DNA from: Escherichia coli
GTDB taxonomy: Bacteria > Pseudomonadota > Gammaproteobacteria > Enterobacterales > Enterobacteriaceae
Direction: 5' to 3' (one strand)
DNA length: 64,000 nt
Assembly: GCF_024223415.1 (NCBI RefSeq)
Contig: NZ_CP100500.1
The notes below the pieces were generated by a model. It was not told the DNA's origin, searched no databases, and was given only the letters and a program-made list of their open reading frames with translations. How positions within the stretch are numbered: position 1 is the stretch's first letter; every line of letters begins with the position of its first letter. This document shows positions 27,745-44,386 of this stretch, piece after piece. Made by a program: the position numbers and the translations under genes.

Positions 27745-27941
27745 TACCGGCTGCGACACTTTTGAATAAAAGCGTCGACATTGCGGCGCTCATAACGAAC
27801 TACTTTTGCACTGAAACGAATTGGTGCCAGGATAGCCCGATGACGATGCTTAATATTCCACTCACATAGCGTTTTCTGTGTAATACCTAACTTTTGGCAT
27901 ACTTCATCCGGGGTGAGTAAATCGTCGGGTTTCTCGCTCAT
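27741..27941 (-). CDS. AlpA/Xis-like excisionase / transcriptional regulator
   Basis: ORF 27741..28139; real start at internal Met (MSEKPDDLLTPDEVCQKLGITQKTLCEWN...), 66 aa; AlpA-type HTH; adjacent to the integrase. Confidence 0.7.
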   Translation of the reverse strand: MSEKPDDLLTPDEVCQKLGITQKTLCEWNIKHRHRAILAPIRFSAKVVRYERRNVDAFIQKCRSRY

Positions 27942-29332: not shown

Positions 29333-29376
29333 AGTATTTTAGCCAGTAGGGCGCGGGATAATCCCGCGCAAGAATG

Positions 29377-30099
29377 TCAGATTAGATCGGCGTAATAGGT
29401 GAAGTTGCCAAACTGCGGATGCCTCCAGCGCTTGCGGTTACCTTTCGGCGGTGTCGATTCGTTTAACAGCTTTTGAGCTGCTTGTTCGATCGCCGGAAGG
29501 TTAACGAGCAATCCCCGAACACCGGTGTCTGAACGTACCGGTATCCTGGCGAAGCCGATCAATTTCCGGCATGTTGAATCAGATAAACCTGTTTTCCATG
29601 CTGCTTTGCTGACGGGGACATATTCACCTTCAACATGAGATAAATTCGCTGGTGCGGCTGGTTGAGAATAGCCAGTTGCATCAAGACAGGCTTTCATTGT
29701 TGCTTCTGCTACGACGCGAGCAAGCTGGACGATGCCGTCGTTGATCGTAATGCTTGGCGCGGGCGCTGCTGATATTTGAACCTGCTCTTTTTCCCTTTCA
29801 AGTTCTTGCCAGCGGTCAACGATTTGTGCAGTGAATTCAGGACAGAGTTGAGCGACTACAACAATGCTATCGCGTCTGCCTTGTTCTCCTTCAAAGTTAT
29901 ATACTTCATCTTTGACTGTGTGGCCTAAGTTATTGATTCTTTCGATAAACGCCGTTGGCGGTTTTCGTATGATATCGCGCTCGACCAGTCTTTCGATGCT
30001 ACGTTTGACGTCACCCGGACGGCTACCTACCAGATCGGCAATCTCCTTATGGGTCATTGAAAGTTGCTTGGTATCGTTTATCAGTGTTAGAGTATTCAT
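29377..30099 (-). CDS. Rha-family phage regulatory protein
   Basis: 240 aa; N-terminus MNTLTLINDTKQLSMTHKEIADLVGSRPGDVKRSIERLV... typical of Rha. Confidence 0.65.
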   Translation of the reverse strand: MNTLTLINDTKQLSMTHKEIADLVGSRPGDVKRSIERLVERDIIRKPPTAFIERINNLGHTVKDEVYNFEGEQGRRDSIVVVAQLCPEFTAQIVDRWQELEREKEQVQISAAPAPSITINDGIVQLARVVAEATMKACLDATGYSQPAAPANLSHVEGEYVPVSKAAWKTGLSDSTCRKLIGFARIPVRSDTGVRGLLVNLPAIEQAAQKLLNESTPPKGNRKRWRHPQFGNFTYYADLI

Positions 30100-30158
30100 G
30101 CTGTATTCTCCATTCAGTTAAAGACGCGCTGATAGTTACCGCTACCAGTGCGTTTTGT

Positions 30159-30416
30159 TTATTCATCCCACGGCTTGTTTGCAGCCTCCCTTGCGGCCTG
30201 CTGCGCAAAATAAATCAATTCAAAAGCTAACTGTTCTCCTTTTTCCAGCGAACTGAGAAGCCTTGCTGTTTCCAGCATGTCCGCGATATACCCGAAAATA
30301 TCTGCCTGATGTAACTGCGTGATCTTGATAGCCATAGCGTTAACCTCGATGGAACCACTGCGGTCCATTTTAGTAAACCACCGTGGTTTATTGATGTCAA
30401 CACCACCGTGGTGCAT
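30159..30416 (-). CDS. hypothetical phage protein (85 aa)
   Basis: ORF only; divergent from the Arc-like gene across a ~30-bp gap. Confidence 0.4.
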   Translation of the reverse strand: MHHGGVDINKPRWFTKMDRSGSIEVNAMAIKITQLHQADIFGYIADMLETARLLSSLEKGEQLAFELIYFAQQAAREAANKPWDE

Positions 30417-30448
30417 ACTTTGAGAATCGAGTTTATGAGGTAGTTACT

Positions 30449-30763
30449 ATGAGTCGTGAAGATGCGCAGATGAAGATCCGTTTACCTGCGGAACTGAAAG
30501 AATTATTGGAGAATGCAGCCCGTGCTAACGGTCGTTCGTTGAATGCAGAGGTGCTTCAACGCTTAAGATCTTCATTTCCTGCAATAAATAAGCTGGAAAG
30601 CCAGAATACTCATGCGTTTTTATATCTACGACAAGCTGAAGGTATGGGGCTTGGACGCGAAGCTGAATCTTTGCTTAATGAGTGGGGCAAAAATATTGAA
30701 AAAAACACAGAACTCTTAGAAAGACTGCATGAACTCGTAGAAAATCGTTTGGGGAAAAAATAA
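30449..30763 (+). CDS. Arc/MetJ-family ribbon-helix-helix DNA-binding protein
   Basis: 104 aa; N-terminal KIRLPAELKELLENAARANGRSLNAEVLQRL matches the Arc-like RHH pattern. Confidence 0.65.
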   Translation: MSREDAQMKIRLPAELKELLENAARANGRSLNAEVLQRLRSSFPAINKLESQNTHAFLYLRQAEGMGLGREAESLLNEWGKNIEKNTELLERLHELVENRLGKK

Positions 30764-30918
30764 TGTACCGTAACGAAATTGTTACTTAAGGTCTTTAGCT
30801 AGCCTGAATAATATTTCTGCATTTACTGAACGCATATTTTTCTTTGCTGTTTTCTTTAACTCCTCCGCTAATGCGCGGGGGATCCGTAATTTAAACTGTA
30901 AGTGCTCATCTGATTTTT

Positions 30919-31188
30919 TCACAATATCCCCTCCAGATTTTTGCTATCCAGCACCACCACGGTAAAGCCCAGTTTTCGCAGACGTTCATGTTCGCGCAAC
31001 TGGTCAGGTCGTGGTGGTTTGCCTGGCGCTTTGCATTCGACAAAGACGATGCGACCGCCGGGTAGCAGGACAATGCGATCCGGTACCGAGCGGCGACCGG
31101 GAGATACGAACTTAAAGGCCACACCGCCAGCTTTTTTCACTTCAGCGACGAGGTGCTTTTCGATAAGGCTTTCACGTTCACAGGCCAT
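30919..31188 (-). CDS. VRR-NUC domain nuclease
   Basis: 89 aa; HLVAEVKKAGG...RIVLLPGGRIVFVECKAPGKPPRPDQ...KLGFTVVVLD matches the VRR-NUC PD-(D/E)xK pattern. Confidence 0.65.
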   Translation of the reverse strand: MACERESLIEKHLVAEVKKAGGVAFKFVSPGRRSVPDRIVLLPGGRIVFVECKAPGKPPRPDQLREHERLRKLGFTVVVLDSKNLEGIL

Positions 31189-31399
31189 CGTCTGCCACCT
31201 TACGTTTTTCGCGTATGTTCTGCATCAGGCAAAAATCAGATCTGCGCTCACTCCATTCCTGATTGAGCGCGTTACGTGACTGGCGGTTGGCTTTGGCCCA
31301 GACCTTTGCTGCCCGATCGTACGCGCCGGACTGCTCAAGGCACAAAGCCTCCCGTGCAGTCTGGTAATAAAGTGGACTGTCCCGGTATTTAAATGACAT
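31178..31399 (-). CDS. hypothetical small phage protein (73 aa)
   Basis: ORF in operon context; overlaps VRR-NUC gene start. Confidence 0.4.
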   Translation of the reverse strand: MSFKYRDSPLYYQTAREALCLEQSGAYDRAAKVWAKANRQSRNALNQEWSERRSDFCLMQNIREKRKVADDGL

Positions 31400-31410
31400 A
31401 TATTTCGATT

Positions 31411-31898
31411 CCTGTAAAAAGCCCCTGACAGTGCAGGGGCGGGATTGATTTGAATTAACGAGGTAAGGCTGGTGGAATGTATTTGCCGATGCGGTCTTCT
31501 ATCGTTGGCAGAATACACATGCTGTCGTTAAAGCGATCGTGCAGTTTGTAGACCAGTTTCGAATCAGCCATTTCAAGCGCTGGCATTAACTGAGTCTGCC
31601 AGATTTCGTTGATGCGCCGGAAGTTATGACAGATCGCACGAAGATTATTAATGAACATTTCCTTCTCTGCGTCAGTGACTTCTGTTTGTGTTTTCTGAAT
31701 ACGCTTTGTGCTGCCGTTCCGGTAAAAGCGTTCCTGCGCAGCGACAGCCTCATCCACAGTCGGATAACAGCCAACGTATACGTTTTTCTCGCCGTCCCAT
31801 GCATAAGCCCGGTACGGATTGTATTTGCTCCGGTGATGGTAAATCATCTTCGGCAGACATTCCCTGTGCGGCGCCAGTATCGTGGAGGACTGCGGAAC
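31411..31898. repeat. ~490-bp direct repeat, copy A (3' part of BRO-N gene + its terminator)
   Basis: Near-identical to 35504..35990 at DNA and protein level (C-terminal 147 aa plus downstream hairpin gcccctgacagtgcaggggc). Confidence 0.85.
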
Positions 31899-32231
31899 GG
31901 CGGTATCTTTCTCGATAAGGTCAAGCACCCAGCGACGAAATTCTTTGGCTACCGGAGTCGTTGCGAATATTGCTACCAGGTGGGCACCGCGCAGGGAGAA
32001 AACTCGCACATCTTTTTCACGTAAGCTATTGTTTATTCCGTTGAACCTCATTTTGAGGTTGATTGACATACCCGGGGTAAACTCATCTGCGTTGCGGTTG
32101 TATATCTGGGTGATTTTATCGCCGCGCGAATACCCCAGCGCAGTAGCCAGCGTTGCGGCGGTGAACCACTGCCTGCCGTTGTGTTCGGTAGTTTCGAGAA
32201 CGTGAGATTTGAATACGAGTTGGGTACTCAT
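31455..32231 (-). CDS. BRO-N domain antirepressor-like protein with C-terminal AP2-like DNA-binding module
   Basis: ORF 31455..32393; probable start at Met55 (MSTQLVFKSHVLETTEHNGRQWFTAATLATALGY..., BRO-N-like). C-terminal ~147 aa (YRAYAWDGEKNVYVGCYPTVDEAVAAQERF, AP2-like) is nearly identical to the C-terminus of ORF 35547..36311. Confidence 0.65.
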   Translation of the reverse strand: MSTQLVFKSHVLETTEHNGRQWFTAATLATALGYSRGDKITQIYNRNADEFTPGMSINLKMRFNGINNSLREKDVRVFSLRGAHLVAIFATTPVAKEFRRWVLDLIEKDTAVPQSSTILAPHRECLPKMIYHHRSKYNPYRAYAWDGEKNVYVGCYPTVDEAVAAQERFYRNGSTKRIQKTQTEVTDAEKEMFINNLRAICHNFRRINEIWQTQLMPALEMADSKLVYKLHDRFNDSMCILPTIEDRIGKYIPPALPR

Positions 32232-32498
32232 AGTTTTATGTCCTTTGCAATATTTTGAATTCACCCCTTTTGAGAGGGCGGTCAGGCGCTCAAAACCGTG
32301 CAAAGTCGGCGGGCGTATTTCCCTTACGGGTATTGTATTAGCCTCACGCCCGACCATTGAATTCTCAATATCGTGGACATAAAAAATCCGCATGTCTGTC
32401 GGGTGCGGTTTCCGCTTTGCAAGGTGTTTTGAGCACCATGACGCGGAATATAGCCCCGTTAACGCGACATTGTCAAACTGAAGAATTTTACGGATAGC

Positions 32499-32540
32499 AA
32501 AAACCCCCGAACTGGTGAGGAACAGGGGTTTTTACTTTAC
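32499..32540. terminator. hairpin terminator downstream of the TIR-like gene; ~40-nt near-identical copy of the host acpS terminator
   Basis: aaaacccccgaactggtgaggaacaggggtttt versus 25203..25235 aaaacccccgaactggtaaggaacgggggtttt; stem and loop both conserved. Confidence 0.6.
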
Positions 32541-32613
32541 TACTGATTTCGCGGTACGCTGATCTCAAACAGACGAGATTATCACCAGACTTGTAAAGTA
32601 AGCAATGGGCGGA

Positions 32614-33357
32614 TTAAGATGAAGCGTTCGCTATCTGAGCGTCGCTGAATGTGAAACCCGCCTGTTTAAGACGCTGGATTAAGCGGGGTACTGTCTCCCG
32701 AACATGGTCATTAAAGTTGAGATAAAGAATACCGGCGGCATCAGAAGGCTGCTCAAGGTGTTGTTTCTGCAGGATGACCACGTTACTGCGACCGAGTGAA
32801 GATAACAGCATCCCCATTTCTAAAACTACGTTTTGGCGTGCCCTGGGCTGGGCTGCTTCCTGGCCGTCTCTTTTGGCGTATCCCACATCATCGGGAGTGA
32901 GGAGAACAATGCCGAAACGCGTCGCTGTCCGTCCCTGACCAATTTCACGTTCAAGCTCTTCAATTATCGTAAGCCCGGTCCCACCGGTATTCTGCAAAAT
33001 AAAATGGTCAGGTAATCCAAGCTTATGAAGAATAAGTTCAAGCTGCTCTTTTGCTACATGATCGTGACCGTGAACGATGAAAATCTTTTTTGCTGGTTCT
33101 TGCATCATGACTGGAGCGTTACCCAGGTGTTCATTAATAATGGCTTCAACCTCAGGTTTTGCCGCTTGTGAACCCTGAATCAAAATCGTTCCGGTGTGGT
33201 AAAGCGTTATGATGGCACCATTACTTAAACGATAACAATCATGACCGGTTTTGTTTTCTTCTCCGGTAACATCAAATCCGGATTCGACTAAAAATTGACG
33301 AAAAGTATCGACAGCGTATGGGTATTTGAGTGCCATTTCATTGAGTTCCTGCATCAT
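32614..33357 (-). CDS. TIR-like domain protein (resembles the 'predicted nucleotide-binding protein containing TIR-like domain' family) with ~80-aa N-terminal domain of unknown function; candidate defence/abortive-infection effector
   Basis: 247 aa. C-terminal region has KIFIVHGHDH...GIVLLTPDD...QPRARQNVVLEMGMLLSSLGRSNVVIL, which I recognise as the signature of bacterial TIR-like (CAP12/Pycsar-effector-type) domains. From memory, not HMM-verified. Confidence 0.5.
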   Translation of the reverse strand: MMQELNEMALKYPYAVDTFRQFLVESGFDVTGEENKTGHDCYRLSNGAIITLYHTGTILIQGSQAAKPEVEAIINEHLGNAPVMMQEPAKKIFIVHGHDHVAKEQLELILHKLGLPDHFILQNTGGTGLTIIEELEREIGQGRTATRFGIVLLTPDDVGYAKRDGQEAAQPRARQNVVLEMGMLLSSLGRSNVVILQKQHLEQPSDAAGILYLNFNDHVRETVPRLIQRLKQAGFTFSDAQIANASS

Positions 33358-33410
33358 TGTGTTCCTGTAAAGTAAGCAATAGTTAACAAAGTTGCAACGA
33401 CAACGATCAC

Positions 33411-35477
33411 CTAATCTTTTCTGTAACGGTACGCCTCGAATCCTCCGGCGTTTAGTGGAATGCTCGTGGCCCAGTCAGGAACGGTTGCCAGTAACTGGCT
33501 GAGATGTTCTGCTGAGTAATCGGGTGAGTCAGGGGCCTCACTTATAATTTCATCGTGTACCGTCAGCACAATGCTGTAACCGGCATCTTCGATAAGCGGC
33601 ATGTTTCCGGCCAGAACGTCGCGGGCGGCCGCCTGGGTGACGTTCTCCACCAGCTTTCCGCCGTAGGTTTTGAGTCGTTGCCATTTACGCGAATAAGAGT
33701 TAACACCCATATAGGTGATATCCCCTTTTTCGATAACCGGAGACGGGTAGCATACAGCGCGTCCGGATGGTAGCTGTATGCGCAGCCACGCGCCATCGCG
33801 GCGGATTTTAAGATAACCGCAATACAATGTTTTTTGCGGTGTGGCGATTGCAGTGCGGACGGTGCGCTCCAGTTCGTACCAGAAATCGCAGGTCGCCGGG
33901 TGCGCCCTGCGCCACAGGCGCTTGAGCGAGTCACATGCGATGAATACACGCTCGGACAGGCCAAAGGTCGACTTACGTTTAACCGATTCGTCGTACCAGC
34001 TTTTCGCCTCGCGGATAACATCGCGGGGAATGTTTGGCAGTGCGGCGTTCGCCAGCTCGTCGAGATCGAGACCGTAAACCAGAGCAAAAGTGATGAAAGC
34101 CGATACACCACCTCCATAACCCAGACCGAGTTCCATGACTTTACCGATCTGACGCATGTGTTTATCAACATCATCTGGTGCAATATCGAAAGCTTTTGCA
34201 TACGCCAGTTTATATAAGTCCGGACCCGTTCCGGCGTCGTACTCTCTGAATGCATTCAGTTTCCATTCTTCTCCCGCCAGCCATGCCAGCATACGGCCTT
34301 CAATGTTCGACAAGTCACTTACCACCAGTTTTTTGCCTGTTGGCGCGATAATGCAGCCACGTAACGCTGAACTGGTTAGTTCCATGATATTGTCAAACAG
34401 CAGGTCTGCACATCCGGCTTTCAGTGCTTCGATGCCTTCGTCTATTTGTTCCTGTTTTAGTGAAGGGCGGGGAAGGTTCTGGGGCTGGAATAGCCGTCCG
34501 GCCCAACGACCGGTACGTGACGCCCCGCAGAACTGTAGCGTACCGCGTAAGCGCCCGTCGTGGCTTACGCCTTTCATCAGTGCCTTGTATTTACTGGTGC
34601 TGGTAGTACTGGCCTGCAGGCGGATAGCCAGCAGTTCTTTCACGGCAGATGGTAAATTGGGGTCGGCAATACGACGTTCCAGAGTACTGCGTTGCATGTC
34701 TGGTAGCTCCACACCGTAGGATTCAACAATGTGCTTAATCAACGCGTCCCGTTGTGTGGCTGCCTGCACTTCGCCATCAGTCATTTCCTGTGTACGCTTT
34801 GCCAGGCGCTTTTGCTCCTGGTCTACCGCTTCGATCGCAGCGCGCGCGAGTTGAATGTCCATGCAGACGCCCCGGTCGTTGATCTGCTGATCACGATGCC
34901 AGAGTGCCAGTTCTGTCCCCTGATAATTCCACTTCGGCAGACGTTTATAGACTTCGCGCATTGCCTCGATATCCAGTCCGGCGTAAGCAACAAAGCGCCG
35001 CCATTCTTCCGGGTGGGTTTTGCTGGTGGCCCGGCGCAGTTTGCTGTTTTTCGGGCGTGGTTTGCACAGTAGCTGAATTAGTGACTTGCCTTCTTTATCC
35101 TTCGCTTTGTCCTGCGGGACGCCCAGCACTTCGCAAAGAGCGCCCAGCGCCCCCGGAAGACCATGCGCCAGCGCCTGCACCATTGTGTCGCGCCAGCGTT
35201 CAGTAGCTGGTGACATGTCTGGCATACAATGACGAAGTATCGTGCGGTCAAAGTGCGAATTGTGCGCCCAAACCTCCACATCCGGGTTTTTGAGTGCGAG
35301 ACGTAATTCCGGGGGGATTTTTTCGCCTGCGGTCAGGTCCCACACCTGCACGGGATCGTTATTGATGGCCCAGGCAAAAAGCATAATTTCAGCGCCTTCT
35401 GCATATGCGTGGGTACCGTTTTTTATCGGTATTTCAGAGAAGGTTTCAAGATCGAGCCAGAGAATGTTTGCAGGCAA
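33411..35477 (-). CDS. family A DNA polymerase with 3'-5' exonuclease domain (phage-type)
   Basis: 688 aa; Exo I motif (LDLETFS), exo motif YAGLDI, polymerase motif B-like ([16 protein letters not shown]), motif C (TVHDEII). Confidence 0.8.
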
Positions 35478-35503
35478 AACAGGACCCTCCGTAAATTAAA
35501 CGG

Positions 35504-35990
35504 CTACAAAAAGCCCCTGACAGTGCAGGGGCGGGATTGATTTGAATTAACGAGGTAAGGCTGGTGGAATGTATCTGCCGATGCGGTCTTCTATGGTCGG
35601 CAGAATGCACATGCTGTCGCTGAAGCGGTCATGCAACTGGTAAACCAGTTTAGAATCCATTTTTTCGAGAGCAGGCATTAACTGCGCCCGCCAGATTTCG
35701 TTGATGCGCCGGAAGTTATGACAGACGGCGCGGAGATTGTTGATGAACATTTCCTTCTCTGCGTCAGTGACTTCTGTCTGTGTTTTCTGAATACGCTTTG
35801 TGCTGCCATTCCGATAGAAGCGTTCCTGAGCAGCAACAGCCTCATCCACGGTTGGATAGCACCCTACGTAAACGCTCTTCTCTCCGTTCCATGCGTAGGC
35901 TCTGTACGGGTTGTATTTGCTCCGGTGATGGTAAACCATCTTCGGCAGACACTCCCTGTGTGGCGCCAGTATCGTGGAGGATTGCTGGTG
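35504..35990. repeat. ~490-bp direct repeat, copy B (3' part of AntA-type gene + its terminator)
   Basis: See copy A. Confidence 0.85.
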
Positions 35991-36311
35991 CAGTTTGCGT
36001 TCGCACTCGATGAAGTATCGGCGGATCTGGCGGCCTTTTTCGTTGCGCTCCACCATCGCCAGTTCTTTGGCCGTGTCGAGGGTGAGGTGGTAGTCCTTAC
36101 AAAGAACATTTTTACGCTTTCCAGTTTTGGAAAACGTTACGATATAATCCTGATTTTCAACGAATTCATAGTCTGCAATTCGTGATGTAATCCACGCTGC
36201 AAACACTTTCCCTACCCCAAGGAATGCGTGCAGATCGCGAGCATTGCAGAGCAGGGTGGTTTCGTTGGCGATAGCGCCGTTGAAAACGGGGATGAGTTGA
36301 GTTGCCATCAC
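35547..36311 (-). CDS. AntA-type antirepressor-like protein with C-terminal AP2-like module (paralogue of 31455..32231)
   Basis: 254 aa; distinct N-terminal domain (NARDLHAFLGVGKVFAAWITSRI...) fused to the same ~147-aa C-terminal module as the BRO-N protein. Confidence 0.65.
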   Translation of the reverse strand: MMATQLIPVFNGAIANETTLLCNARDLHAFLGVGKVFAAWITSRIADYEFVENQDYIVTFSKTGKRKNVLCKDYHLTLDTAKELAMVERNEKGRQIRRYFIECERKLHQQSSTILAPHRECLPKMVYHHRSKYNPYRAYAWNGEKSVYVGCYPTVDEAVAAQERFYRNGSTKRIQKTQTEVTDAEKEMFINNLRAVCHNFRRINEIWRAQLMPALEKMDSKLVYQLHDRFSDSMCILPTIEDRIGRYIPPALPR

Positions 36312-36691
36312 AGTTACCTCTAACGGTGAAATTCACCGCCACCACTGAGTTGCAAATCTCATATGGGTGGCGAACTGACGAGGTTTGCAATACCGGCGTT
36401 AGAGGAAACCGGCGCGCCGAAGCGCCCCCGCCAGCCCGCCATAATGCGAACGTGGCAAAGCTTGCGACAATAAAAAAGACGCTGGCGCGTCTGGTGTCGC
36501 CCCTAACAATTCCGGGTTGCAAATCCCGATCTCCATTTGGGAGATTCGGTGAGCATAAACCGGAAGGGGGCGATGAGTCAATATCGGGGTAGCAGGGCGA
36601 CTGGGTGCTAACCAGAACAATACAGGTAGCTCCGGGCATATTCCCCTTTGCAAAAACACCCGGCGTTTAACCGGGCGTCTGTGAAGCAGGA

Positions 36692-37240
36692 TTAAATCAG
36701 TGCTTCAGCATCAGCACCTTCGCTGATATCGTCGAAATCGTCAGCGCTTGCCACTCCGCCGCCAGCGAATGCATCGCCGTCTCGCAGGAACTGGACTCCG
36801 CCGAGTGAGGCATTAATGCGTTTACCGAAATTATTGTCCTGTGCCCAGATATCGATAACGGCGTTTACATAGCACCCTGCATAGGGACGTCCATCAGCCT
36901 GAGTAAGTGGCGAACGATCGCGATCAAGAACAGCCGGGCGCGCTTTGTTAGCAGCATTCAGGAAGAAATTACCGGGGAAACCTTCATACTCTGCTTTTTC
37001 ATCGCCGTCATGCAGGCACAGATTGAGTTTCTTCTCCAGTTGGTTATAAACAGCCTCCCACTTCTCTCCCCATTTTTCCTTTGCGACCTGCTTCATTGCT
37101 TTACGGATTTCTTCCAGTTGTGGGTGTTCGGGAGACATTAAAAATACAGCGGAGAAACGCGGATCGCCTTCGCCGTTTACAGTTTTAGCTTCAAACAGCG
37201 CAGGAAAAGCCAGACGAACATTGTTCAGCTTCAGTTTCAT
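36692..37240 (-). CDS. phage single-stranded DNA-binding protein (DUF2815-like)
   Basis: 182 aa; MKLKLNNVRLAFPALFEAKTVNGEGDPRFSAVF... pattern typical of phage SSB of this family; acidic C-terminal tail. Confidence 0.6.
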   Translation of the reverse strand: MKLKLNNVRLAFPALFEAKTVNGEGDPRFSAVFLMSPEHPQLEEIRKAMKQVAKEKWGEKWEAVYNQLEKKLNLCLHDGDEKAEYEGFPGNFFLNAANKARPAVLDRDRSPLTQADGRPYAGCYVNAVIDIWAQDNNFGKRINASLGGVQFLRDGDAFAGGGVASADDFDDISEGADAEALI

Positions 37241-37255
37241 TATATGTCTCCTTAA

Positions 37256-38560
37256 TCAGATGAGGTCAGCGGCGAGCGCGTCGTCGGACACGTCATCGAA
37301 ATCATTTACAGGGTTAATATTGAGTGCGGGGCGCGGATCTGAATCAGGAACGACGGTGGGTTTACCGTCCGCTCGTGTTATCAGGGCCTCGACTTTTGGC
37401 CAGCGGCGCGGACTGGCTTTTTTGATGAGTTTTTCTGCTTTGGCAGGGCTAATCAGTTTAAAGTCGAAAACTTCTTCAGTTTTATACCTGAACTGATCCT
37501 TCAGAAGAGCTCGAGCTGCTTCCTCATCACTCCAGGTCCGGTTACCTTGTTTTCCTGTTACCAGTTTAAACCCCGGTACCGTATGCCCGGCATGGAGTTC
37601 ATTGTGAACCCGGTCACGTAGCGCTTTGCAAAAAGACTCAATCAGGTCAACATGGCTGTAAATGTCTGCCAGTTGTTCAGCGGTCAGTAGTGGTACACGC
37701 TTAACGGCATCTGCGAGTTGCTCGCCAACGGGTCTGCTCAGGTCAACGAAGTCGTCCGCAACGGCGTTAAGTCTGGCCTGTGCTTCTGCTGAACACAGCC
37801 CACCTTTTGCTTTACAGAAGAGGCACTGTTTCTCGCCTGGTGTGAAGTTTTCAGGTGGCAGGGTTTCGACGCCTTCGCAATCGGCGATGTTGAACATCAC
37901 GATCACACTGGCGGCAGCTTCCTGCGCCCGTTTGCCGAATGCCTGCAGTTCCTCCACCGTCAGGGACCACTCTGAAACGTGGTTAATCCGCGGCTGGTGG
38001 ATGAACAGGCGCACCGTCTCGAAGTCGTACAGAAGGCTGAACTGCTCGAGCACGCCCAGGGCATACAGCTGCAACTGCTCGTTCTGCTCAGCGTCGACAC
38101 GCACTCCCTTACCGTATTTCAGGTCGTGGATCTGCAGTTCGTTACCCGCGATGATTATGCAGTCGGCAGTTCCGAAAGAGTCTTCCACACCGACGATGTG
38201 GGAGAAGTCTACGCGTTGCTCAACCAGCAGCGTGTTGCCCTGTGCCAGTGACCAGACTGTATCAACATACCGGCCAACGGCTTCGACCATTTCCTCATCC
38301 ACCTGTGGGCCAGATGTATCATCAGGATTTGCGCGAAGGGGGTATGAGCCGAGAAACATAGAAACATTGCATCCGGCGTAGTGTTCCGGGTGACTTTGCC
38401 TGTTTCGCAGGACTTTTTCTGCAAGCGCGTGCGCCGCAGTACCTTCAACAGCAAAGGATGTTTCTTTGTCAGGCTGAGTGGACTCCAGCGCCAGACTGCC
38501 GCTACAACGCATCCATCTGTGGGCGGCTGATGGAGATAATTTTGCATGAACCTCGGGCAT
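37256..38560 (-). CDS. PD-(D/E)xK exonuclease, Cas4/RecB-like (DUF2800-like)
   Basis: 434 aa; nuclease motif (IHDLKYGKG), N-terminal Cys plus C-terminal CxxC cluster ([11 protein letters not shown]) suggests an Fe-S nuclease. Confidence 0.6.
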
Positions 38561-40266: not shown

Positions 40267-40890
40267 TTATCTTTTGCGGCGGTAAATACGATGTTCAATC
40301 ATGACCCCTACGATCTGTAAGGGGACATCTGCACTTCGTAGCACGGGATAGTCGGGATTCAGGGGGACCAGTTCAAAATCATCAACGCCGATACCCAACG
40401 GGCGGTATTTTTTGAAAGTGGCCTCATACCCGTTGTTCTTTGCAACGACGAATTCGCCAGGCATGGGGCATAAATCCGGGTCAATTATTACAATATCGCC
40501 TTCCTTAAACTCCGGTTGCATACTGTCACCATCTATCCGCAGGGCGAAGCAGGACTCAGGTACGTCGGAATCCGCGAGAACGTATTCCATATTTCCATCC
40601 ATGTCCGTAGCGTCTTTTGCTTCCGTTAGCGCACCGGCCTGTACGTAACTGAGGATCGGGATGCGGCGGGTACTTATTTCCGCCAGGGGCATTATATTCC
40701 TGCCATTTAAAAGCCAGTCGGGACTGCATTTCAGTGCCTTTGAAAGCTCTATGATGTTGCGGGGCTTCCGGGTCTTTCCGCTTTCAATAGTCTCAATGGA
40801 TTGCTGGCTGACCCCCGCGATTGCTGCAACTTCTGTTTGTGTCATCCCGAGTTCTGTACGGCGTGCTTTAAAGCGTTCTGCAAGTGACAT
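40267..40890 (-). CDS. CI-like prophage repressor (XRE HTH + S24 LexA-like peptidase domain)
   Basis: ORF 40267..40956; start at Met23 (MSLAERFKARRTELGMTQTEVAAIAGVSQQSI...) preceded by AGGGGG RBS; S24 motifs (GDSM...) in C-terminal half; divergent from cro. Confidence 0.85.
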   Translation of the reverse strand: MSLAERFKARRTELGMTQTEVAAIAGVSQQSIETIESGKTRKPRNIIELSKALKCSPDWLLNGRNIMPLAEISTRRIPILSYVQAGALTEAKDATDMDGNMEYVLADSDVPESCFALRIDGDSMQPEFKEGDIVIIDPDLCPMPGEFVVAKNNGYEATFKKYRPLGIGVDDFELVPLNPDYPVLRSADVPLQIVGVMIEHRIYRRKR

Positions 40891-40949
40891 GGTGTACCCC
40901 CTGATTCCTGATTTTTTGCTCTCCCTTATTAATACAATTTTTGTTGTAG

Positions 40950-40978
40950 TTGACAAACATCATTTATTGTCGCTAAAT
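40950..40978 (+). promoter_or_regulatory. PR-like promoter for cro (TTGACA-17 bp-CTAAAT) within the cI/cro operator region
   Basis: Consensus -35 TTGACA with 17-bp spacer and a -10-like hexamer ~30 bp upstream of the cro ATG; flanking short inverted repeats (tacaattt / aaattgta) may be operators. Confidence 0.5.
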
Positions 40979-41006: not shown

Positions 41007-41216
41007 ATGACACTTGCTACCCGAGTAAAAAACCAGCGTAAGGCTCTTGGCCTGACGCAGGTTATGCTGGCAGAACGCACAGGGATTAGCCAGCAGGCCA
41101 TTAACCGCATTGAAAGCGGCCTTATATCCCGTCCCCGTTATCTGCTGGAAATAGCTGTTGCCCTGAACTGCGACCCTAACTGGCTGTTGCATGGTACTCC
41201 CGCGGATAAGACGTAA
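41007..41216 (+). CDS. Cro-like HTH regulator
   Basis: 69 aa; HTH (LGLTQVMLAERTGISQQAINRIESG); divergent from the CI-like gene. Confidence 0.8.
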   Translation: MTLATRVKNQRKALGLTQVMLAERTGISQQAINRIESGLISRPRYLLEIAVALNCDPNWLLHGTPADKT

Positions 41217-41219
41217 CTT

Positions 41220-43364
41220 ATGGCCCAGATCAATCTCTCATACGGCCGGGAACTGGTAGACAACCTTCCTGTGCCCTGTACTGATGCCGATTTTAACCGG
41301 ACATTTAAGCGTGTTAAAAAGTGGGCTCGTGCTATCGGCGCAACCAAACAGGATACAAAAAGCCAGCTTAACGCCAAAAAAGCGCGTCTGCCCTACATCT
41401 GGCACGCAATGAAGGACGTCACCAAAGGTCGTAACGCTGCTAATGCGGGCAACCGTGATGTGCTCTTCATGGATATGGACGGCTGTAACGCGCCTGCATG
41501 GGGCGCTTTACGCGATGCGCTGGCCTGTTTCTCATGTTTCACCTATTCAACGCCAAGTCATCTGCACCCCACTGCAAACGGGGAACATCGCTGGCGTATC
41601 TGCCTGGAGCTGAGTCGCCAGGTCACGCCCGAAGAGTACAAGCGTCTTGGCCTTGCGGTTGAAAACTGGCTGATGGATTGTATCAGCCTGCTGGACGATT
41701 ACACCGTCAAGTGGGACCACAGCGTTTACAACCCGGACCATATGGTTTTTGCCCCTGATGAAAAGGCCATCTTTGAACGTTTTACCGGGGAACCTGTTGA
41801 CGTTGATATCCTGTTGGCCAGCGCACCGGAAGTTACCATCCCTGAAAAAGCATCTTCCACAGACCGCGATGATTTGTCACGCGCTGTCGAACTGAACGGC
41901 ATCAGTCAGGAAACTTTTGACGACCTGCGCGAAGTGATGTGGCATCCGGCTGTACTGGCAGACGCTGAGCCGGGTTGCGGTAAATACCATAGCTGGGCGG
42001 CGATGGGAAATCGTCTGGCATGGTTTAAGGGAACCGACTGGGAAGACGCAGCCCGTCAGCTTTGGGTCGACTGGTCGATAGCGGGTGGTGGCGATGGCAT
42101 CAGCGCTGAACATAAATGGGACAGTAACCAGCTTACCGCCGAACGAACCGGTTACCAGGCCATTTTCGCCCATGCGCAGAAAGCAGGGGTCGCTAACCCC
42201 GCGACCGACCGTATGCGCGGTTTTGTCGCCGGTGCGAATGACTTCGACGAGTTGCCACCGGAAAAACCGGAGCTGCCAAAGTCCAGACCGCACACAGGCG
42301 GCTACGGTAAGCCGGGAAAGTTCATCATTGAAGGGATGGTGCCGCACGGGGTGACCATGCTCTATGGAGCTTCGTCATCGTTCAAATCCTATGGCGTTAT
42401 CTCCATGCTCTGCCGTGTGGCGACGAAAACTCATCGCTGGGGCGGGCGTAACCTCAAAGGTGGCGCTGTTCTGTATGTTGCCGCTGAGGGTGGCAGCTCC
42501 GTTATGCCGCGTGTCGGCGCATGGGCGGATAAGTACAATGACGGTAAGCCACTGGATTTGTTCTACACCCTGCCACTGGCGGTTGATCTCTCTGTCCCCG
42601 CAAACGTCACAAAGATGGTAAACGAGATTAAGCGCATAGCGTACCACACCGGCGAACCTGTCCGGCTTGTGGCCGTCGACACGCTGTCGCAGTCCATGAT
42701 GCAGGGCGAGGAAAACAGCGCCAGTGATGTGGCAAAATTCATGGCGGGCGCAACCAGGGTGTTCACCGAAACGGGCGCAGCGGTGATTATCGTTCACCAC
42801 AGCGGCAAAGACAGCAGTAAGGGGATGCGTGGCTCTTCTGCTGCCTTTGCTAACGCCGATGCGGTCATTCGCGTGGAACGCATCGGCGACGCGGTGAACC
42901 TGATTAACGAGAAACAGCGTACCGGTCCGGTACAGCCGACCCGCGGTTACATGGTACCGACAGTGCAGCTTCCTGACGACGTTATCGCGGCTAACGAAAC
43001 GTACGATGATGAGTATACCAGCACTGAAGGGGAAGTATATGACCCTGTAAGGCTTACCACCGAGCGCGTGTTTGAAGATGCACCAATGGCGGAGATCACC
43101 CCACTGCTGGTGGATAAGGGCGACGGGAATACCAAAGGCAGCAGCGATGAATCCTGGGTATGGGAAAAGCTGGAGGCCTCCGGCGGCAGCATCAACCGTT
43201 CTGCGCTTCGCGAGTTATGGAAGGATGAAACCGATAAAAGTACCGGTCAGTTACGTGCGGTTCTGGGGCGCATGAAAGAGAAGTATTACATCGTTGAGCG
43301 CGACGGCGTAATCAGGGATCCGCTATGCAATGGCGTACCACCTGGAGGGGATGAAATTGCTTAA
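41220..43364 (+). CDS. replication primase-helicase (N-terminal primase-like region + RecA/DnaB-like P-loop ATPase)
   Basis: 714 aa; Walker A-like (YGASSSFKSYG), RecA-like core (VLYVAAEGGSS...VIIVHHSGKD); immediately followed by an iteron-rich region. Confidence 0.7.
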   Translation: MAQINLSYGRELVDNLPVPCTDADFNRTFKRVKKWARAIGATKQDTKSQLNAKKARLPYIWHAMKDVTKGRNAANAGNRDVLFMDMDGCNAPAWGALRDALACFSCFTYSTPSHLHPTANGEHRWRICLELSRQVTPEEYKRLGLAVENWLMDCISLLDDYTVKWDHSVYNPDHMVFAPDEKAIFERFTGEPVDVDILLASAPEVTIPEKASSTDRDDLSRAVELNGISQETFDDLREVMWHPAVLADAEPGCGKYHSWAAMGNRLAWFKGTDWEDAARQLWVDWSIAGGGDGISAEHKWDSNQLTAERTGYQAIFAHAQKAGVANPATDRMRGFVAGANDFDELPPEKPELPKSRPHTGGYGKPGKFIIEGMVPHGVTMLYGASSSFKSYGVISMLCRVATKTHRWGGRNLKGGAVLYVAAEGGSSVMPRVGAWADKYNDGKPLDLFYTLPLAVDLSVPANVTKMVNEIKRIAYHTGEPVRLVAVDTLSQSMMQGEENSASDVAKFMAGATRVFTETGAAVIIVHHSGKDSSKGMRGSSAAFANADAVIRVERIGDAVNLINEKQRTGPVQPTRGYMVPTVQLPDDVIAANETYDDEYTSTEGEVYDPVRLTTERVFEDAPMAEITPLLVDKGDGNTKGSSDESWVWEKLEASGGSINRSALRELWKDETDKSTGQLRAVLGRMKEKYYIVERDGVIRDPLCNGVPPGGDEIA

Positions 43365-43369
43365 TTTTA

Positions 43370-43660
43370 CCAATTTGCAGAAAGCTACAAATTTGCATAA
43401 AAATGCAAAAATAAAATATATGCAATTTATTTGCATAAATAGTCAGCGCAACAAAAATTTTAAGCAGCAAGCGCAACACGATGCGCAACAGCGCAACAAA
43501 AAATGTTGCGCCGCTGATTTTAAAGGCTTTTTTAACCGCAACAAGAGCAACACGACGGCTAGCGTAGTGGCGCAACACAATACCCCTCTCCCCCCTTTAG
43601 GGGGGAGGGGTTTGTTGCGCCCGAGCCGTTGCGGTTTTTATTCATTTAAATGCATATGCA
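43370..43660. repeat. putative replication origin: AT-rich tract with TTTGCAT/ATGCAA repeats, GCGCAACA iterons (direct and inverted), and a GC-rich hairpin
   Basis: At least 6 copies of gcgcaaca or its complement within ~180 bp, preceded by an AT-rich block and followed by hairpin cccctctcccccc-ttta-ggggggagggg. Seen directly. Confidence 0.55.
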
Positions 43661-44386
43661 ATGCTGGTGAATGATAAGGGGGTGCAGATGCTGACAGCAA
43701 TCAACAACGAAAAAATTGTCATCGCAAGGGACGCGCAGAAACCGGGAATTTTCGCCTGCCCGGAATGTGGTGAAGTTGTCACCCTGCGGAAAGGTTCGGT
43801 GAAAGTTCACCATTTCGCCCATCGCAGCACCACATCCTGCGGTTACGGGAAAGGCGAATCTGAGTTGCACATGGATTTGAAAATGCAGGTCTATGACGCG
43901 TTGAACGCGCATCGTGAGGTGGAATATGTTGCGATGGAGGTCGCAGTCGGTGATGTTCGTCCCGATGTGCTGGCGATTATTCGGGGTCAGAAGGTTGCTT
44001 TTGAGATTCAGGTTAGTTCGCTGAGTATTGAAGACCTCTATCGCCGCACGGTTGCGTACGCAGCTCAGGACATTGCGATGATCTGGATCCTGCACTGGCC
44101 TGAAGGTACTGCACTGGACCGGCTTTATCACCCTGCATCATGGGAGCGATGGTTACATACTTGCGGAATGGCAACTCTGTACTTCTGGGCGGGCGATGGC
44201 TGGGTCAGGCCAGTGCGTCTGGGAAACCGACAACATGGATTACAAAGAGCACCTCGTGCCCATCTGGTTGATGATTTCGAACCAAAGCGAACAGGCGGGT
44301 GGATTAAAGGTGATTTTCTGATACCTGCTCGCTTTATCTGGAATCGTGTGCGACGGCAAAAACGTAGAGGTCAGAGCTATGCGTAA
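43661..44386 (+). CDS. CoiA-like / PD-(D/E)xK-type nuclease family protein
   Basis: 241 aa; CPECG zinc ribbon, HHFAH, and DVRPDVLAI...AFEIQVSS resembling competence protein CoiA-like nucleases. Confidence 0.5.
   Translation: MLVNDKGVQMLTAINNEKIVIARDAQKPGIFACPECGEVVTLRKGSVKVHHFAHRSTTSCGYGKGESELHMDLKMQVYDALNAHREVEYVAMEVAVGDVRPDVLAIIRGQKVAFEIQVSSLSIEDLYRRTVAYAAQDIAMIWILHWPEGTALDRLYHPASWERWLHTCGMATLYFWAGDGWVRPVRLGNRQHGLQRAPRAHLVDDFEPKRTGGWIKGDFLIPARFIWNRVRRQKRRGQSYA

What the first reader, a model, noticed from the sequence alone, without database searches (positions are those of the whole stretch)
43370..43660. Iteron-rich AT/GC-structured region downstream of the primase-helicase: putative prophage replication origin
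Non-coding ~290 bp with an AT-rich block carrying TTTGCAT/ATGCAA repeats, at least six GCGCAACA iterons in both orientations, and a GC-rich hairpin (cccctctcccccc/ggggggagggg). This resembles initiator-binding origins. It is placed immediately 3' of the primase-helicase rather than inside an O-like gene as in lambda.
Basis: partly seen in the sequence, partly recalled or inferred. Interest (0 to 1): 0.4.

Follow-up and report, generated by a model that had tools for sequence, protein, structure and literature searches.

The report
Iteron origin beside phage primase-helicase
The ~300 bp after a prophage's primase-helicase gene is most likely that phage's replication origin: an array of 8-bp sites for the winged-helix tail of the same protein, a known design (SaPI/PICI, P4) built here from unrelated enzyme domains.

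Summary
Window 43365-43687 lies between a 714-aa gene and a CoiA-like gene in a lambda-like prophage. It holds 7 exact and 2 one-mismatch GCGCAACA copies within 175 bp; the other 63.8 kb holds 4. It also has an AT-rich block full of TGCA repeats and a ~50-nt palindrome: iteron, GC stem, inverted iteron.

The 714-aa protein has four parts: an AEP primase, a helical domain, a RepA-type (AAA_25) helicase and a C-terminal winged helix.

In 16 related loci, plus 4 from metagenomes, the same DNA scaffold always follows this gene. The 8-mer differs between loci (GCGCAACA, GCGGGACA, GCGTGGCA, GCGTGACA, CGGTGACA, GCGTTACA, CGTAACA, TGTGCCC). It tracks the winged-helix recognition helix, not the helicase core. 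One pairing was predicted before the DNA was read and held.

RefSeq annotates a 107-aa ORF over the array. That ORF shows no third-codon-position excess and its frame is not conserved, so it is probably spurious.

Best reading: a replication origin bound by its own initiator, organised like SaPI/PICI ori and P4 crr. The helicase, however, is SF4-type, and the origin also resembles IncQ oriV. Origin activity is inferred, not shown. I rate it a new variant of a known kind, of moderate interest.

The parts
41220..43364 (+). Initiator gene (714 aa) with four parts: AEP primase (about res 1-200), helical PriCT-like domain (about 218-335), AAA_25/RepA-type helicase (about 350-600), linker, C-terminal winged helix (about 642-700).
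43143..43319 (+). Coding region of the C-terminal winged-helix domain (res 642-700). The predicted recognition helix H3 is res 675-687, TGQLRAVLGRMKE (nt 43242-43280).
   Evidence: AF2 of the last 100 aa: H1-beta-H2-H3-beta-hairpin, core pLDDT 87-91. All top Foldseek PDB hits are winged-helix domains, with weak E-values of 0.02-0.3. This is the hypervariable part of an otherwise highly conserved protein.
43365..43445 (.). AT-rich block with TGCA/A-tract repeats (TTTGCATAAAAATGCAAAA...). Candidate bent or unwinding region.
   Evidence: 60-nt windows across 43370-43459 have 22-23% GC. TGCA occurs 5 times against 0.19 expected. The block is kept in the E. coli, Salmonella and Erwinia loci whatever the iteron class, and is absent from L006, L028 and L029.
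43446..43511 (.). Left iteron cluster: four direct GCGCAACA (starting at 43446, 43471, 43483, 43491) and one inverted copy (43504-43511).
   Evidence: The same offsets are occupied by other 8-mers in other winged-helix classes.
43515..43535 (.). Conserved AT-rich core TGATTTTAAAGGCTTTTTTAA between the two iteron groups. Candidate melting site.
   Evidence: Many columns of this block are invariant or nearly invariant across the 16 loci. It was used as a search anchor.
43536..43552 (+). Two direct one-mismatch iterons: CCGCAACA (43536-43543) and GAGCAACA (43545-43552).
   Evidence: The homologous positions hold the locus-specific iteron in the other loci. Metagenome locus L033 has GCGCAACA at the second site.
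43553..43569 (.). Conserved spacer CGACGGCTAGCGTAGTG (family consensus CACGGCAAGCGCAGGA). Role unknown.
   Evidence: Conserved independently of iteron class.
43570..43620 (.). Palindrome of about 50 nt: iteron (43570-43577), GC-rich stem-loop (43582-43611, loop TTTA), inverted iteron (43613-43620).
   Evidence: Palindromic in all 16 loci. In 11 of 20 pairs both sides changed and pairing was kept, including in the inner GC stem.
43621..43666 (.). Right edge: CCGAGCC, a degenerate inverted iteron GTTGCGG (43628-43634), TTTTTATTCA, and ATGCATATGCAATGC.
   Evidence: Conserved blocks. The iteron-like heptamer changes with class (GTCCCAA, GTCACGG, GCCACAA). TTATTCAC resembles a relaxed DnaA box in most relatives, but the window has TTATTCAT.

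Best explanation
Window 43365-43666 is the replication origin of a lambda-like prophage that has replaced lambda O/P with its own machinery. The upstream gene encodes one polypeptide with four parts: an AEP primase, a helical PriCT-like domain, a RepA/SF4-type helicase and a C-terminal winged helix.

Proposed mechanism, with each step marked:
1. The winged helix reads the 8-bp iterons through helix H3. This is inferred from covariation.
2. Nine to ten sites sit in two groups around an AT-rich core, with inverted copies. They concentrate protomers and orient two helicase assemblies. Inferred by analogy with SaPI Rep, P4 alpha and IncQ.
3. An AT-rich segment melts and the helicase loads itself. 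Inferred.
4. The conserved palindrome is flanked by iterons and does not depend on specificity class. It becomes single-stranded and forms the same hairpin on both strands. These hairpins act as ssi-like priming or loading sites for the AEP primase. Speculative.
5. The phage's own family-A polymerase extends the primers. Inferred from gene content.

The winged helix and its iterons form one contiguous cassette of about 500 bp. That cassette has been exchanged between phages, giving at least 8 specificities. This probably prevents cross-talk between co-resident relatives.
For: **Site clustering.** Seven exact and two near-exact iterons lie within 175 bp, P about 4e-18. It is the only such cluster in 64 kb.

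**Constant link to the gene.** In all 16 loci the same scaffold starts right after the stop codon of this gene (E. coli, Salmonella, Erwinia, Mixta, Arsenophonus-type, Serratia, Xenorhabdus). The next gene varies: CoiA in 8 loci, other genes or Q in 8. A scaffold-pattern scan of viral contigs returned only contigs carrying the gene.

**Covariation of iteron and winged helix.**
- LR[AT]V[LI][GS]RMK goes with GCGCAACA (4 loci, including a distant Arsenophonus-type one).
- DTFRRxxNRM goes with GCGGGACA (Erwinia and Salmonella). I predicted this pairing from the helix before reading the DNA.
- TLRKEIKRM goes with GCGTGGCA; ATLRQG[IK]RRL with GCGTGACA; ALKQALWRM with CGGTGACA; SLRLALYRM with GCGTTACA; the remaining classes follow the same pattern.
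- Mantel test of iteron distance against H3: r = 0.31, p = 0.004. Against the helicase core: r = -0.13, p = 0.72.
- Four further metagenome loci obey the mapping.

**Iterons replaced in place.** Their offsets (82, 107, 119, 127, 140-, 172, 181, 206, 249-) are identical in three classes with different 8-mers.

**Mosaic structure.** The window's helicase-core DNA is 76-98% identical (per 60-nt bin) to Salmonella loci of other classes. Identity falls to 40-66% exactly over the winged helix and stays at 48-73% over the iteron part of the origin. Same-class loci show the reverse pattern.

**Protein folds.** The C-terminus has a winged-helix fold. The N-terminus has an AEP primase fold with the catalytic residues invariant; RSF1010 RepB' is among the top hits. 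The middle is an AAA_25 helicase.

**Conserved palindrome.** It is kept with compensatory changes.

**Precedent.**
- SaPI/PICI origins lie immediately 3' of rep, with iterons in both orientations around an AT-rich region. They are bound by Rep's C-terminal winged helix and were shown to drive plasmid replication (PMC9371898, PMC6092414).
- P4 crr has 8-bp repeats in both orientations directly after alpha.
Against: - There is no experimental evidence of replication, binding or melting for any member of this family. No sequenced phage isolate carries the full-length protein.
- The covariation demonstrates a protein-DNA recognition pair, not that DNA synthesis starts here.
- The winged-helix assignment rests on an AF2 model and Foldseek hits with weak E-values (0.02-0.3).
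- Two classes with different H3 helices share CGTGACA (N against B/E/G/H), so the code is not one-to-one.
- All characterised self-loading initiator-helicases with a winged helix are SF3 or SF6. SF4 helicases normally need a separate initiator or loader, so self-loading is less certain here.
- The GC hairpin followed by TTTGTT also meets a loose terminator definition.
Confidence: 0.75

Rival explanations
1. The array is a cis-acting regulatory or auxiliary site for the initiator rather than the start site. It could be a P4 crr-like enhancer, a copy-control or handcuffing array, or an autoregulatory operator, with the true origin elsewhere.
For: P4 has exactly this: iterons directly 3' of alpha (crr), while initiation occurs at ori 4.5 kb away. 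The covariation evidence fits any binding-site array equally well.
Against: The window has no second iteron cluster, either inside the gene or in the cI-cro region. The array has the full set of origin-type features: an AT-rich block, an AT-rich core between opposed iterons, and a palindrome. In SaPI/PICI the equivalent array is the origin (PMC9371898, PMC6092414).
Confidence: 0.12
2. The region is mainly a transcription terminator or attenuator of the early-right operon, acting as a lambda tR2-like timer before Q. The repeats would be incidental or regulatory.
For: The GC hairpin followed by TTTGTTGC scores as terminator-like, as do two weaker sites. The site lies between the early genes and Q. 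No internal promoter was found, so Q must be read through it.
Against: The T-run is weak and is part of the inverted iteron. The Serratia and Xenorhabdus loci keep the palindrome but have no T-run at all. A terminator does not explain 9 class-specific 8-mers in both orientations or their covariation with the winged helix. The hairpin could still have a secondary role in transcription.
Confidence: 0.08
3. The region is a real protein-coding gene: the 107-aa hypothetical protein annotated in RefSeq as WP_029490148.1, window 43351-43674.
For: An ORF of 114 codons is open here. PGAP and other gene callers annotate it in several genomes. The same relative frame stays open for 94-99 codons in 8 of 16 loci.
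Against: - Substitutions by codon position are 22/15/22 and 23/11/21, so there is no third-position excess. The adjacent helicase 3' end gives 17/12/47 and 24/16/53.
- The open frame shifts or disappears in 8 of 16 loci.
- +8 and -9 nt indels occur within the ORF region in the alignment with L005.
- The repeat unit occurs in two codon phases and on both strands.
- No Pfam family was precomputed for the ORFs that gene callers call here.
Confidence: 0.03
4. The region is a promoter or operator array for the downstream CoiA-like gene.
For: It lies immediately upstream of the CoiA-like gene in the window.
Against: No sigma-70-like promoter was found on either strand. The downstream gene is CoiA in only 8 of 16 loci, while the array and the upstream gene are constant.
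Confidence: 0.02

Closest known systems
SaPI/PICI Pri-Rep-ori replicons (SaPI1, SaPIbov1, SaPI5 PriRep5; E. coli EcCICFT073)
   Same: The origin lies immediately 3' of the initiator-helicase gene. It consists of short (5-8 bp) iterons in two sets around an AT-rich region, with copies in opposite orientations. A C-terminal winged helix of the helicase recognises them. Primase and helicase can be fused in one chain. There are several mutually specific Rep/ori types (PMC9371898, PMC6092414).
   Different: SaPI Reps are AAA+ SF3 or SF6 helicases (PMC9371898), whereas this one is AAA_25/RepA-type. This primase has an AEP fold. The element is a complete lambda-like prophage with terminase, portal and capsid genes, not a satellite. 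It has an extra conserved iteron-flanked GC palindrome and a TGCA-repeat block. [quoted passage not shown]
Phage P4 alpha protein with ori and crr
   Same: One polypeptide is primase, helicase and C-terminal origin-binding winged helix. The repeats are 8 bp (GGTGAACA), in both orientations around an AT-rich stretch. crr lies directly 3' of the alpha gene (PMC4234260 text).
   Different: There is no sequence similarity. P4 uses a Toprim primase and an SF3 helicase. P4 needs two separate arrays (ori and crr), whereas only one array exists here.
IncQ plasmid RSF1010 oriV with RepA, RepB' and RepC
   Different: RSF1010 uses three separate proteins and 20-bp direct iterons bound by RepC. Here a single chain carries a winged helix, the iterons are 8 bp, and a single palindrome would give the same hairpin on both strands. 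The ssi-like role of the palindrome is untested.
Lambda ori with the O protein
   Same: The genomic context is the same: cI-cro, then replication genes, then Q. Both have iterons plus an AT-rich region plus a palindrome (established knowledge of ori-lambda). Both show allelic initiator/iteron specificities among lambdoid phages.
   Different: Lambda ori lies inside the O gene, has four ~19-bp iterons, and recruits host DnaB through P. Here the origin is intergenic, has 8-bp iterons, and the phage brings its own helicase, primase and polymerase.
pRN1 ORF904 and Bordetella phage BIP-1 type replicons
   Same: The replication protein combines an AEP prim-pol, a helical domain (PriCT_2 in BIP-1), a helicase and a C-terminal winged helix. 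The origin lies directly 3' of its gene and contains a required stem-loop (PMC4234260).
   Different: Those use SF3 helicases and a ~100-nt stem-loop without iterons. Here the helicase is SF4-type, the origin is rich in iterons, and the palindrome is about 50 nt.

Membership tests
Iteron-type replication origin bound by its own initiator (general class) | Clustered repeats of a short sequence, far above chance, next to AT-rich DNA | tested here: met
   7 exact and 2 near-exact 8-mers in 175 bp, P about 4e-18. The adjacent block has 22-23% GC.
Iteron-type replication origin bound by its own initiator (general class) | The initiator has a DNA-binding domain whose specificity matches the repeats | tested here: met
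   By covariation only. About 14 winged-helix classes against 8 or more iteron types; Mantel p = 0.004 for H3; one blind prediction confirmed; 4 extra loci consistent. No binding assay was possible.
Iteron-type replication origin bound by its own initiator (general class) | The fragment supports initiator-dependent autonomous replication, and synthesis starts there | not testable with these tools
   Needs cloning, marker-frequency analysis or 2D gels.
SaPI/PICI-type ori organisation | Located immediately 3' of the rep (initiator-helicase) ORF | tested here: met
   The scaffold starts at the stop codon in 16 of 16 loci.
SaPI/PICI-type ori organisation | Two sets of iterons flank an AT-rich region, with at least two iterons on each side pointing in opposite directions | tested here: inconclusive
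   There are two sets around the AT-rich core at 43515-43535. Their orientations are + + + + - | + + + (palindrome) - -. Each side therefore mixes orientations rather than forming cleanly opposed sets.
SaPI/PICI-type ori organisation | The element is a phage satellite (PICI) with an SF3/SF6 Rep | tested here: not met
   It is a complete lambda-like prophage with terminase gpA, portal, protease and capsid E. The helicase is AAA_25/RepA-type. It works like a PICI ori but is not a member of that family.
P4 ori/crr | Homology of the initiator to P4 alpha (Toprim primase, SF3 helicase, alpha origin-binding domain) | tested here: not met
   BLASTP found no significant match. hhalign of the winged-helix profile against the alpha C-terminus gave probability 0.1%.
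P4 ori/crr | Two separated iteron arrays (ori and crr), both required in cis | tested here: not met
   There is only one cluster in the 64-kb window.
IncQ (RSF1010) oriV-type origin | RepA-family helicase plus an AEP-like primase | tested here: met
IncQ (RSF1010) oriV-type origin | Hairpin ssi sites used by the primase for priming | not testable with these tools
   A conserved palindrome is present with compensatory changes. Whether it is used for priming is unknown.
Rho-independent terminator | GC-rich stem-loop followed by a U-run, conserved across relatives | tested here: inconclusive
   The stem is conserved. The tail is TTTGTT in 14 loci, and there is no T-run in L028 and L029.
Protein-coding gene (RefSeq WP_029490148.1) | Conserved reading frame and an excess of third-codon-position substitutions | tested here: not met
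   Substitutions by codon position are 22/15/22 and 23/11/21, against 17/12/47 and 24/16/53 in the control. The frame is not conserved in 8 of 16 loci.

The most novel reading that the evidence does not exclude
The protein is an 'IncQ replicon in one polypeptide': RepB'-like AEP primase, RepA-type SF4 helicase and a RepC-like origin reader in one chain.

- It would be the first self-loading SF4 initiator-helicase. All characterised helicases with a fused origin-binding winged helix are SF3 or SF6.
- It would use an iteron-flanked palindrome as a symmetric hairpin priming and loading site.
- Together with the phage's own family-A polymerase, this would make initiation independent of host DnaA, DnaB, DnaC and DnaG.
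- Specificity would be set by a small readable code: 3-4 residues of helix H3 against the central 3 bp of GCG-NNN-CA. It would be swapped between phages as a cassette of about 500 bp.
Probability: 0.3. Interest if true: 0.65.

Novelty: new variant of a known kind. Interest (0 to 1): 0.45.

Why it matters
- **Uncharacterised origins.** Lambdoid prophages of E. coli and Salmonella carry many non-lambda replication modules whose origins and mechanisms are not characterised. PMC8951638 says there is 'so far no knowledge' for the Eru types of Stx phages. This family offers a fully specified candidate with exact sites, a predicted reader domain and natural specificity variants. It is ready for a plasmid-maintenance and EMSA test.
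- **A broader design rule.** If confirmed, the 'iterons right after the initiator-helicase gene, read by its C-terminal winged helix' design is not special to PICI satellites or to AAA+ helicases. A RecA-fold SF4 helicase would have arrived at it independently.
- **Orthogonal parts.** The 8 or more natural winged-helix/iteron pairs on a constant scaffold are a ready-made set for studying DNA-recognition codes, and possibly for building orthogonal replicons.
- **Annotation.** RefSeq hypothetical protein WP_029490148.1 and its relatives are probably ORFs called over an origin.

Tried and rejected
- **DNA similarity.** The 296-421 bp region found nothing in 50,697 phage records or 72,556 plasmids. 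Only 1 of 5,426 complete E. coli genomes holds it.
- **Full-length protein.** No phage isolate has it. The best hits are the N-terminal half of APSE P3 at 48% and helicase-only hits at about 34%.
- **Solved structures by sequence.** No PDB relative was found with either a single sequence or a profile.
- **P4.** Alpha is not homologous, and the winged-helix profile does not match the alpha C-terminus. P4 is therefore an analogue only.
- **Rfam.** Nothing came near a gathering score; the best hit scored 21 bits against a threshold of 100.
- **Promoters.** The scan found none.
- **Host-factor sites.**
  - No DnaA box at <=1 mismatch in the window's array.
  - No IHF consensus in the window or in any relative except L029.
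  - The conserved TTATTCAC is only DnaA-box-like.
- **Second iteron cluster.** No P4-like ori/crr pair exists in the window.
- **Species-representative genomes.** The scan gave only 3 loci, duplicates of ones already held. The protein database plus contig look-ups were far more productive.
- **Metagenome pattern scan.** It gave 4 true members and 3 unrelated chance matches without iterons.
- **TTTGCAT as the repeat unit.** It is not enriched in the window. TGCA with A-tracts describes the repeat better.

Full report
**1. What is in the sequence**

The finding lies between a 714-aa ORF (41220-43364, +) and a CoiA-like gene. The CoiA ORF opens at 43661, but its likely start is the ATG at 43688.

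GCGCAACA occurs 11 times in the 64-kb window. Seven of these fall within 43446-43620, five on the + strand and two on the - strand. Two more one-mismatch copies lie at 43536 and 43545. The background rate predicts 0.011 copies in 175 bp (Poisson P about 4e-18). No other 300-bp stretch has more than 3 copies at <=1 mismatch.

Upstream of the repeats, 43370-43459 shows 22-23% GC in 60-nt windows. The tetramer TGCA with A-tracts is the real feature: 5 copies in 85 nt against 0.19 expected.

The GC hairpin is at 43582-43611. It is flanked by an iteron and an inverted iteron, which makes a palindrome of about 50 nt. As single-stranded DNA it folds at -23.1 kcal/mol, z = -6.8.

**2. Context**

The element is a complete lambda-like prophage. 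Its genes are:
- integrase at 26341-27744;
- an early-left operon with an SNF2 helicase, Bro-N, a TIR-domain protein, a family-A DNA polymerase (33411-35477), DUF2815 and a DUF2800 nuclease;
- an S24 CI-type repressor (40267-40956, -) and a Cro-like HTH (41007-41216);
- the 714-aa gene, the array, CoiA, Q and the lysis genes;
- a lambda-type terminase, portal, protease and capsid E.

It is rare. Only one of 5,426 complete E. coli genomes carries it. Nothing similar was found in phage or plasmid records.

**3. The protein**

- **Helicase.** Pfam finds AAA_25 at res 368-532, E = 3.9e-28. NCBI names close homologues 'helicase RepA family'.
  - CAPP, ASFV and MPXV primases also appear.
  Residues expected for AEP motifs I-III (D85, D87; S113, H114, H116; D166) are invariant in a 12-sequence alignment. 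Xenorhabdus homologues carry Pfam PriCT_2.
- **Winged helix.** The last 100 residues model as H1-beta-H2-H3-beta-hairpin with core pLDDT 87-91. All top Foldseek PDB hits are winged-helix domains (MCM and ORC winged helices, BlaI/MecI, Z-alpha, ArsR/MarR), but with weak E-values of 0.02-0.3.

So 'primase-helicase' is right, and the protein also has a candidate origin-reading domain at res ~642-700.

**4. The decisive comparison**

I collected relatives in three ways:
- a peptide-pattern scan of viral contigs;
- a protein search that returned 167 hits, of which the best 120 were listed;
- contig look-ups for one representative of each C-terminal class.

Across the alignment, many long stretches of the helicase core are invariant. 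The ~85 residues after the motif ERVFED fall into about 14 classes.

In all 16 loci the DNA after the stop codon has the same scaffold, in this order:
- an AT-rich block (in the enterobacterial loci);
- 3-5 direct repeats plus one inverted repeat;
- TGATTTTAAAGGnTTTTT;
- two direct repeats;
- CACGGCAAGCGCAGGA;
- the palindrome of repeat, GC stem and inverted repeat;
- CCGAGCC plus an inverted repeat;
- TTTTTATTCAC...TATGCA.

The repeat itself differs between loci:

| Loci | Repeat |
|---|---|
| window, L003, L030, L017 | GCGCAACA |
| L005, L021 | GCGGGACA |
| L022 | GCGTGGCA |
| L020, L023, L025, L026, L029 | GCGTGACA |
| L024 | CGGTGACA |
| L027 | GCGTTACA |
| L028 | GCGTAACA |
| L006 | TGTGCCC |

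The repeats sit at identical offsets after the stop codon (82, 107, 119, 127, 140-, 172, 181, 206, 249-) in classes with different 8-mers.

The repeat type follows helix H3 of the winged helix:
- Loci with LR[AT]V[LI][GS]RMK have GCGCAACA, even when they are otherwise distant (L017).
- The Erwinia class (DTFRRELNRM) and a Salmonella class (DTFRRTINRM) share GCGGGACA. I predicted this pairing from the helix before fetching the Salmonella DNA.

A Mantel test relates iteron distance to H3 distance (r = 0.31, p = 0.004) and to winged-helix distance (r = 0.39, p = 0.017). It finds no relation to helicase-core distance (r = -0.13, p = 0.72).

A later metagenome scan with a scaffold pattern added four members, and all obey the mapping.

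A sliding-identity comparison shows a mosaic:
- The window's helicase-core DNA is 76-98% identical (per 60-nt bin) to Salmonella loci of other classes.
- Identity drops to 40-66% over the winged helix and stays at 48-73% over the iteron-rich part of the origin.
- Loci of the same class are less similar in the core but 83-100% identical in the right half of the array.

The winged helix and its sites therefore travel together as one cassette.

**5. Rivals**

- **Coding ORF.** RefSeq annotates 43351-43674 as a hypothetical protein, and other gene callers do the same in about half the contigs.
  - Substitutions between same-class loci fall evenly on codon positions: 22/15/22 and 23/11/21. The adjacent helicase 3' end gives 17/12/47 and 24/16/53.
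  - The open frame moves or vanishes in 8 of 16 loci.
  - +8 and -9 nt indels occur within the ORF region in the alignment with L005.
  - One database protein (P0073, 820 aa) is simply a read-through of the helicase into this ORF.
- **Promoter for CoiA.** No promoter-like site was found. CoiA is the next gene in only half the loci.
- **Terminator.** The hairpin plus TTTGTT passes a loose scan. However, the Ts belong to the inverted iteron, and the two most distant loci keep the palindrome with no T-run. A secondary role in timing Q expression remains possible.
- **crr-like auxiliary site.** This cannot be excluded without experiment. There is no second cluster in the window.

**6. The palindrome**

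An alignment of 15 palindromes gives 20 consensus pairs. In 11 of them both sides changed and pairing was kept, including inside the GC stem. The GC stem does not vary with specificity class.

The conserved palindromic symmetry therefore matters in its own right. It could act as a DNA hairpin or cruciform, as an RNA hairpin, or as a symmetric site for a conserved protein part. These data cannot tell which.

**7. Mechanism proposed**

*Shown*
- There is a unique, highly non-random site array.
- It is constantly linked to this gene.
- It co-varies with a winged-helix-like domain.
- The palindrome and the AT-rich elements are conserved.

*Inferred*
- The winged helix binds the iterons through H3.
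- Multiple sites in both orientations assemble and orient the helicase.
- AT-rich DNA melts.
- The helicase loads itself.
- The AEP domain primes.
- The phage's family-A polymerase extends.

*Speculative*
- The palindrome acts like the ssiA/ssiB hairpins of RSF1010.

**8. Comparison with known systems**

The organisation is that of SaPI/PICI origins. Those lie immediately downstream of rep, have iterons on both sides of an AT-rich region, are read by the Rep C-terminal winged helix, sometimes have a fused Pri-Rep, and have been shown to drive plasmid replication (PMC9371898; PMC6092414).

P4 crr is a second analogue. It has 8-bp repeats in both orientations directly after alpha.

Membership fails for both:
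- There is no homology to alpha.
- The helicase is RepA/SF4-type, not SF3 or SF6.
- The element is a full phage, not a satellite.

By enzyme content the nearest system is IncQ RSF1010, which has a RepA helicase, an AEP-like RepB' primase and the iteron-binding RepC (PMC4234260). Here those functions are fused into one chain.

pRN1 and BIP-1 replicons share the plan of AEP, helicase and winged helix with an origin 3' of the gene, but they use SF3 helicases and a stem-loop without iterons (PMC4234260).

[quoted passage not shown] This family, like P4 crr, shows otherwise.

**9. Verdict**

- Novelty: new variant of a known kind.
- Confidence that this is the initiator's binding-site array: about 0.9.
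- Confidence that it is the actual origin: about 0.75.
- Interest: moderate (0.45). The logic is familiar. The evidence is unusually clean and directly testable, and an SF4 helicase with its own origin reader would be new.

Noticed in passing
window 43351-43674 (+): RefSeq/PGAP annotates a 107-aa hypothetical protein (WP_029490148.1) over the iteron array. Gene callers call an ORF there in 5 of 11 fetched contigs. One database protein (P0073, 820 aa) is a read-through fusion of the helicase with this ORF. It is probably an annotation artefact.
   Followed up: yes
window 41220-42250 (res 1-343); APSE phage records H2-H18; P0107-P0120: The AEP primase plus helical module is also found fused to VapE-type (PF05272) helicases. 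This occurs in Salmonella prophages (70-86% identity) and in APSE phages of Hamiltonella (P3, 48%). The primase module is therefore shuffled between helicase types. I did not examine what origin follows those genes.
   Followed up: partly
L006 3872-5656 and L007: In this relative the gene is 594 aa and lacks residues ~49-170, which include AEP motifs I and II. It still keeps a full iteron array (TGTGCCC type). It may be defective, or it may depend on another primase.
   Followed up: no
window 32614-33357 (-): A gene with a CAP12/Pycsar-effector-type TIR domain (Pfam PF10137, E = 5.6e-31) sits in the prophage early-left operon next to the DNA polymerase. It is a possible prophage-borne defence or counter-defence gene.
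   Followed up: no
window 27938-38560 (-): The prophage carries its own replication and recombination set on the early-left side: an SNF2 helicase, a family-A DNA polymerase, DUF2815 and a DUF2800 PD-(D/E)XK nuclease. This is unusual for a lambda-like phage and fits host-independent replication.
   Followed up: partly
window 43637-43645; same position in L020-L030, L003, L005: The conserved TTTTTATTCAC at the right edge of the array matches 8 of 9 positions of the relaxed DnaA box TTWTNCACA in 12 of 16 loci. It matches perfectly in L021, L025 and L030. The window itself has TTATTCAT. No other DnaA or IHF consensus is conserved.
   Followed up: partly
window 43688-44386 (+) and 8 of 16 related loci: A CoiA-like protein (CoiA_N plus a CoiA nuclease-like domain) is the first gene after the origin in half of the loci. 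This hints at a role linked to replication or recombination.
   Followed up: no
window 43553-43569; family consensus CACGGCAAGCGCAGGA: A 16-17 nt spacer between the right-hand iterons and the palindrome is conserved across iteron classes. It is neither AT-rich nor part of the palindrome. Its role is unexplained.
   Followed up: no
L010 and L012 (Mixta mediterraneensis, two contigs): One genome carries two copies of this replication gene on different contigs. Both are 67% identical to the window protein. I did not check whether they share the same iteron class, which would bear on incompatibility.
   Followed up: no
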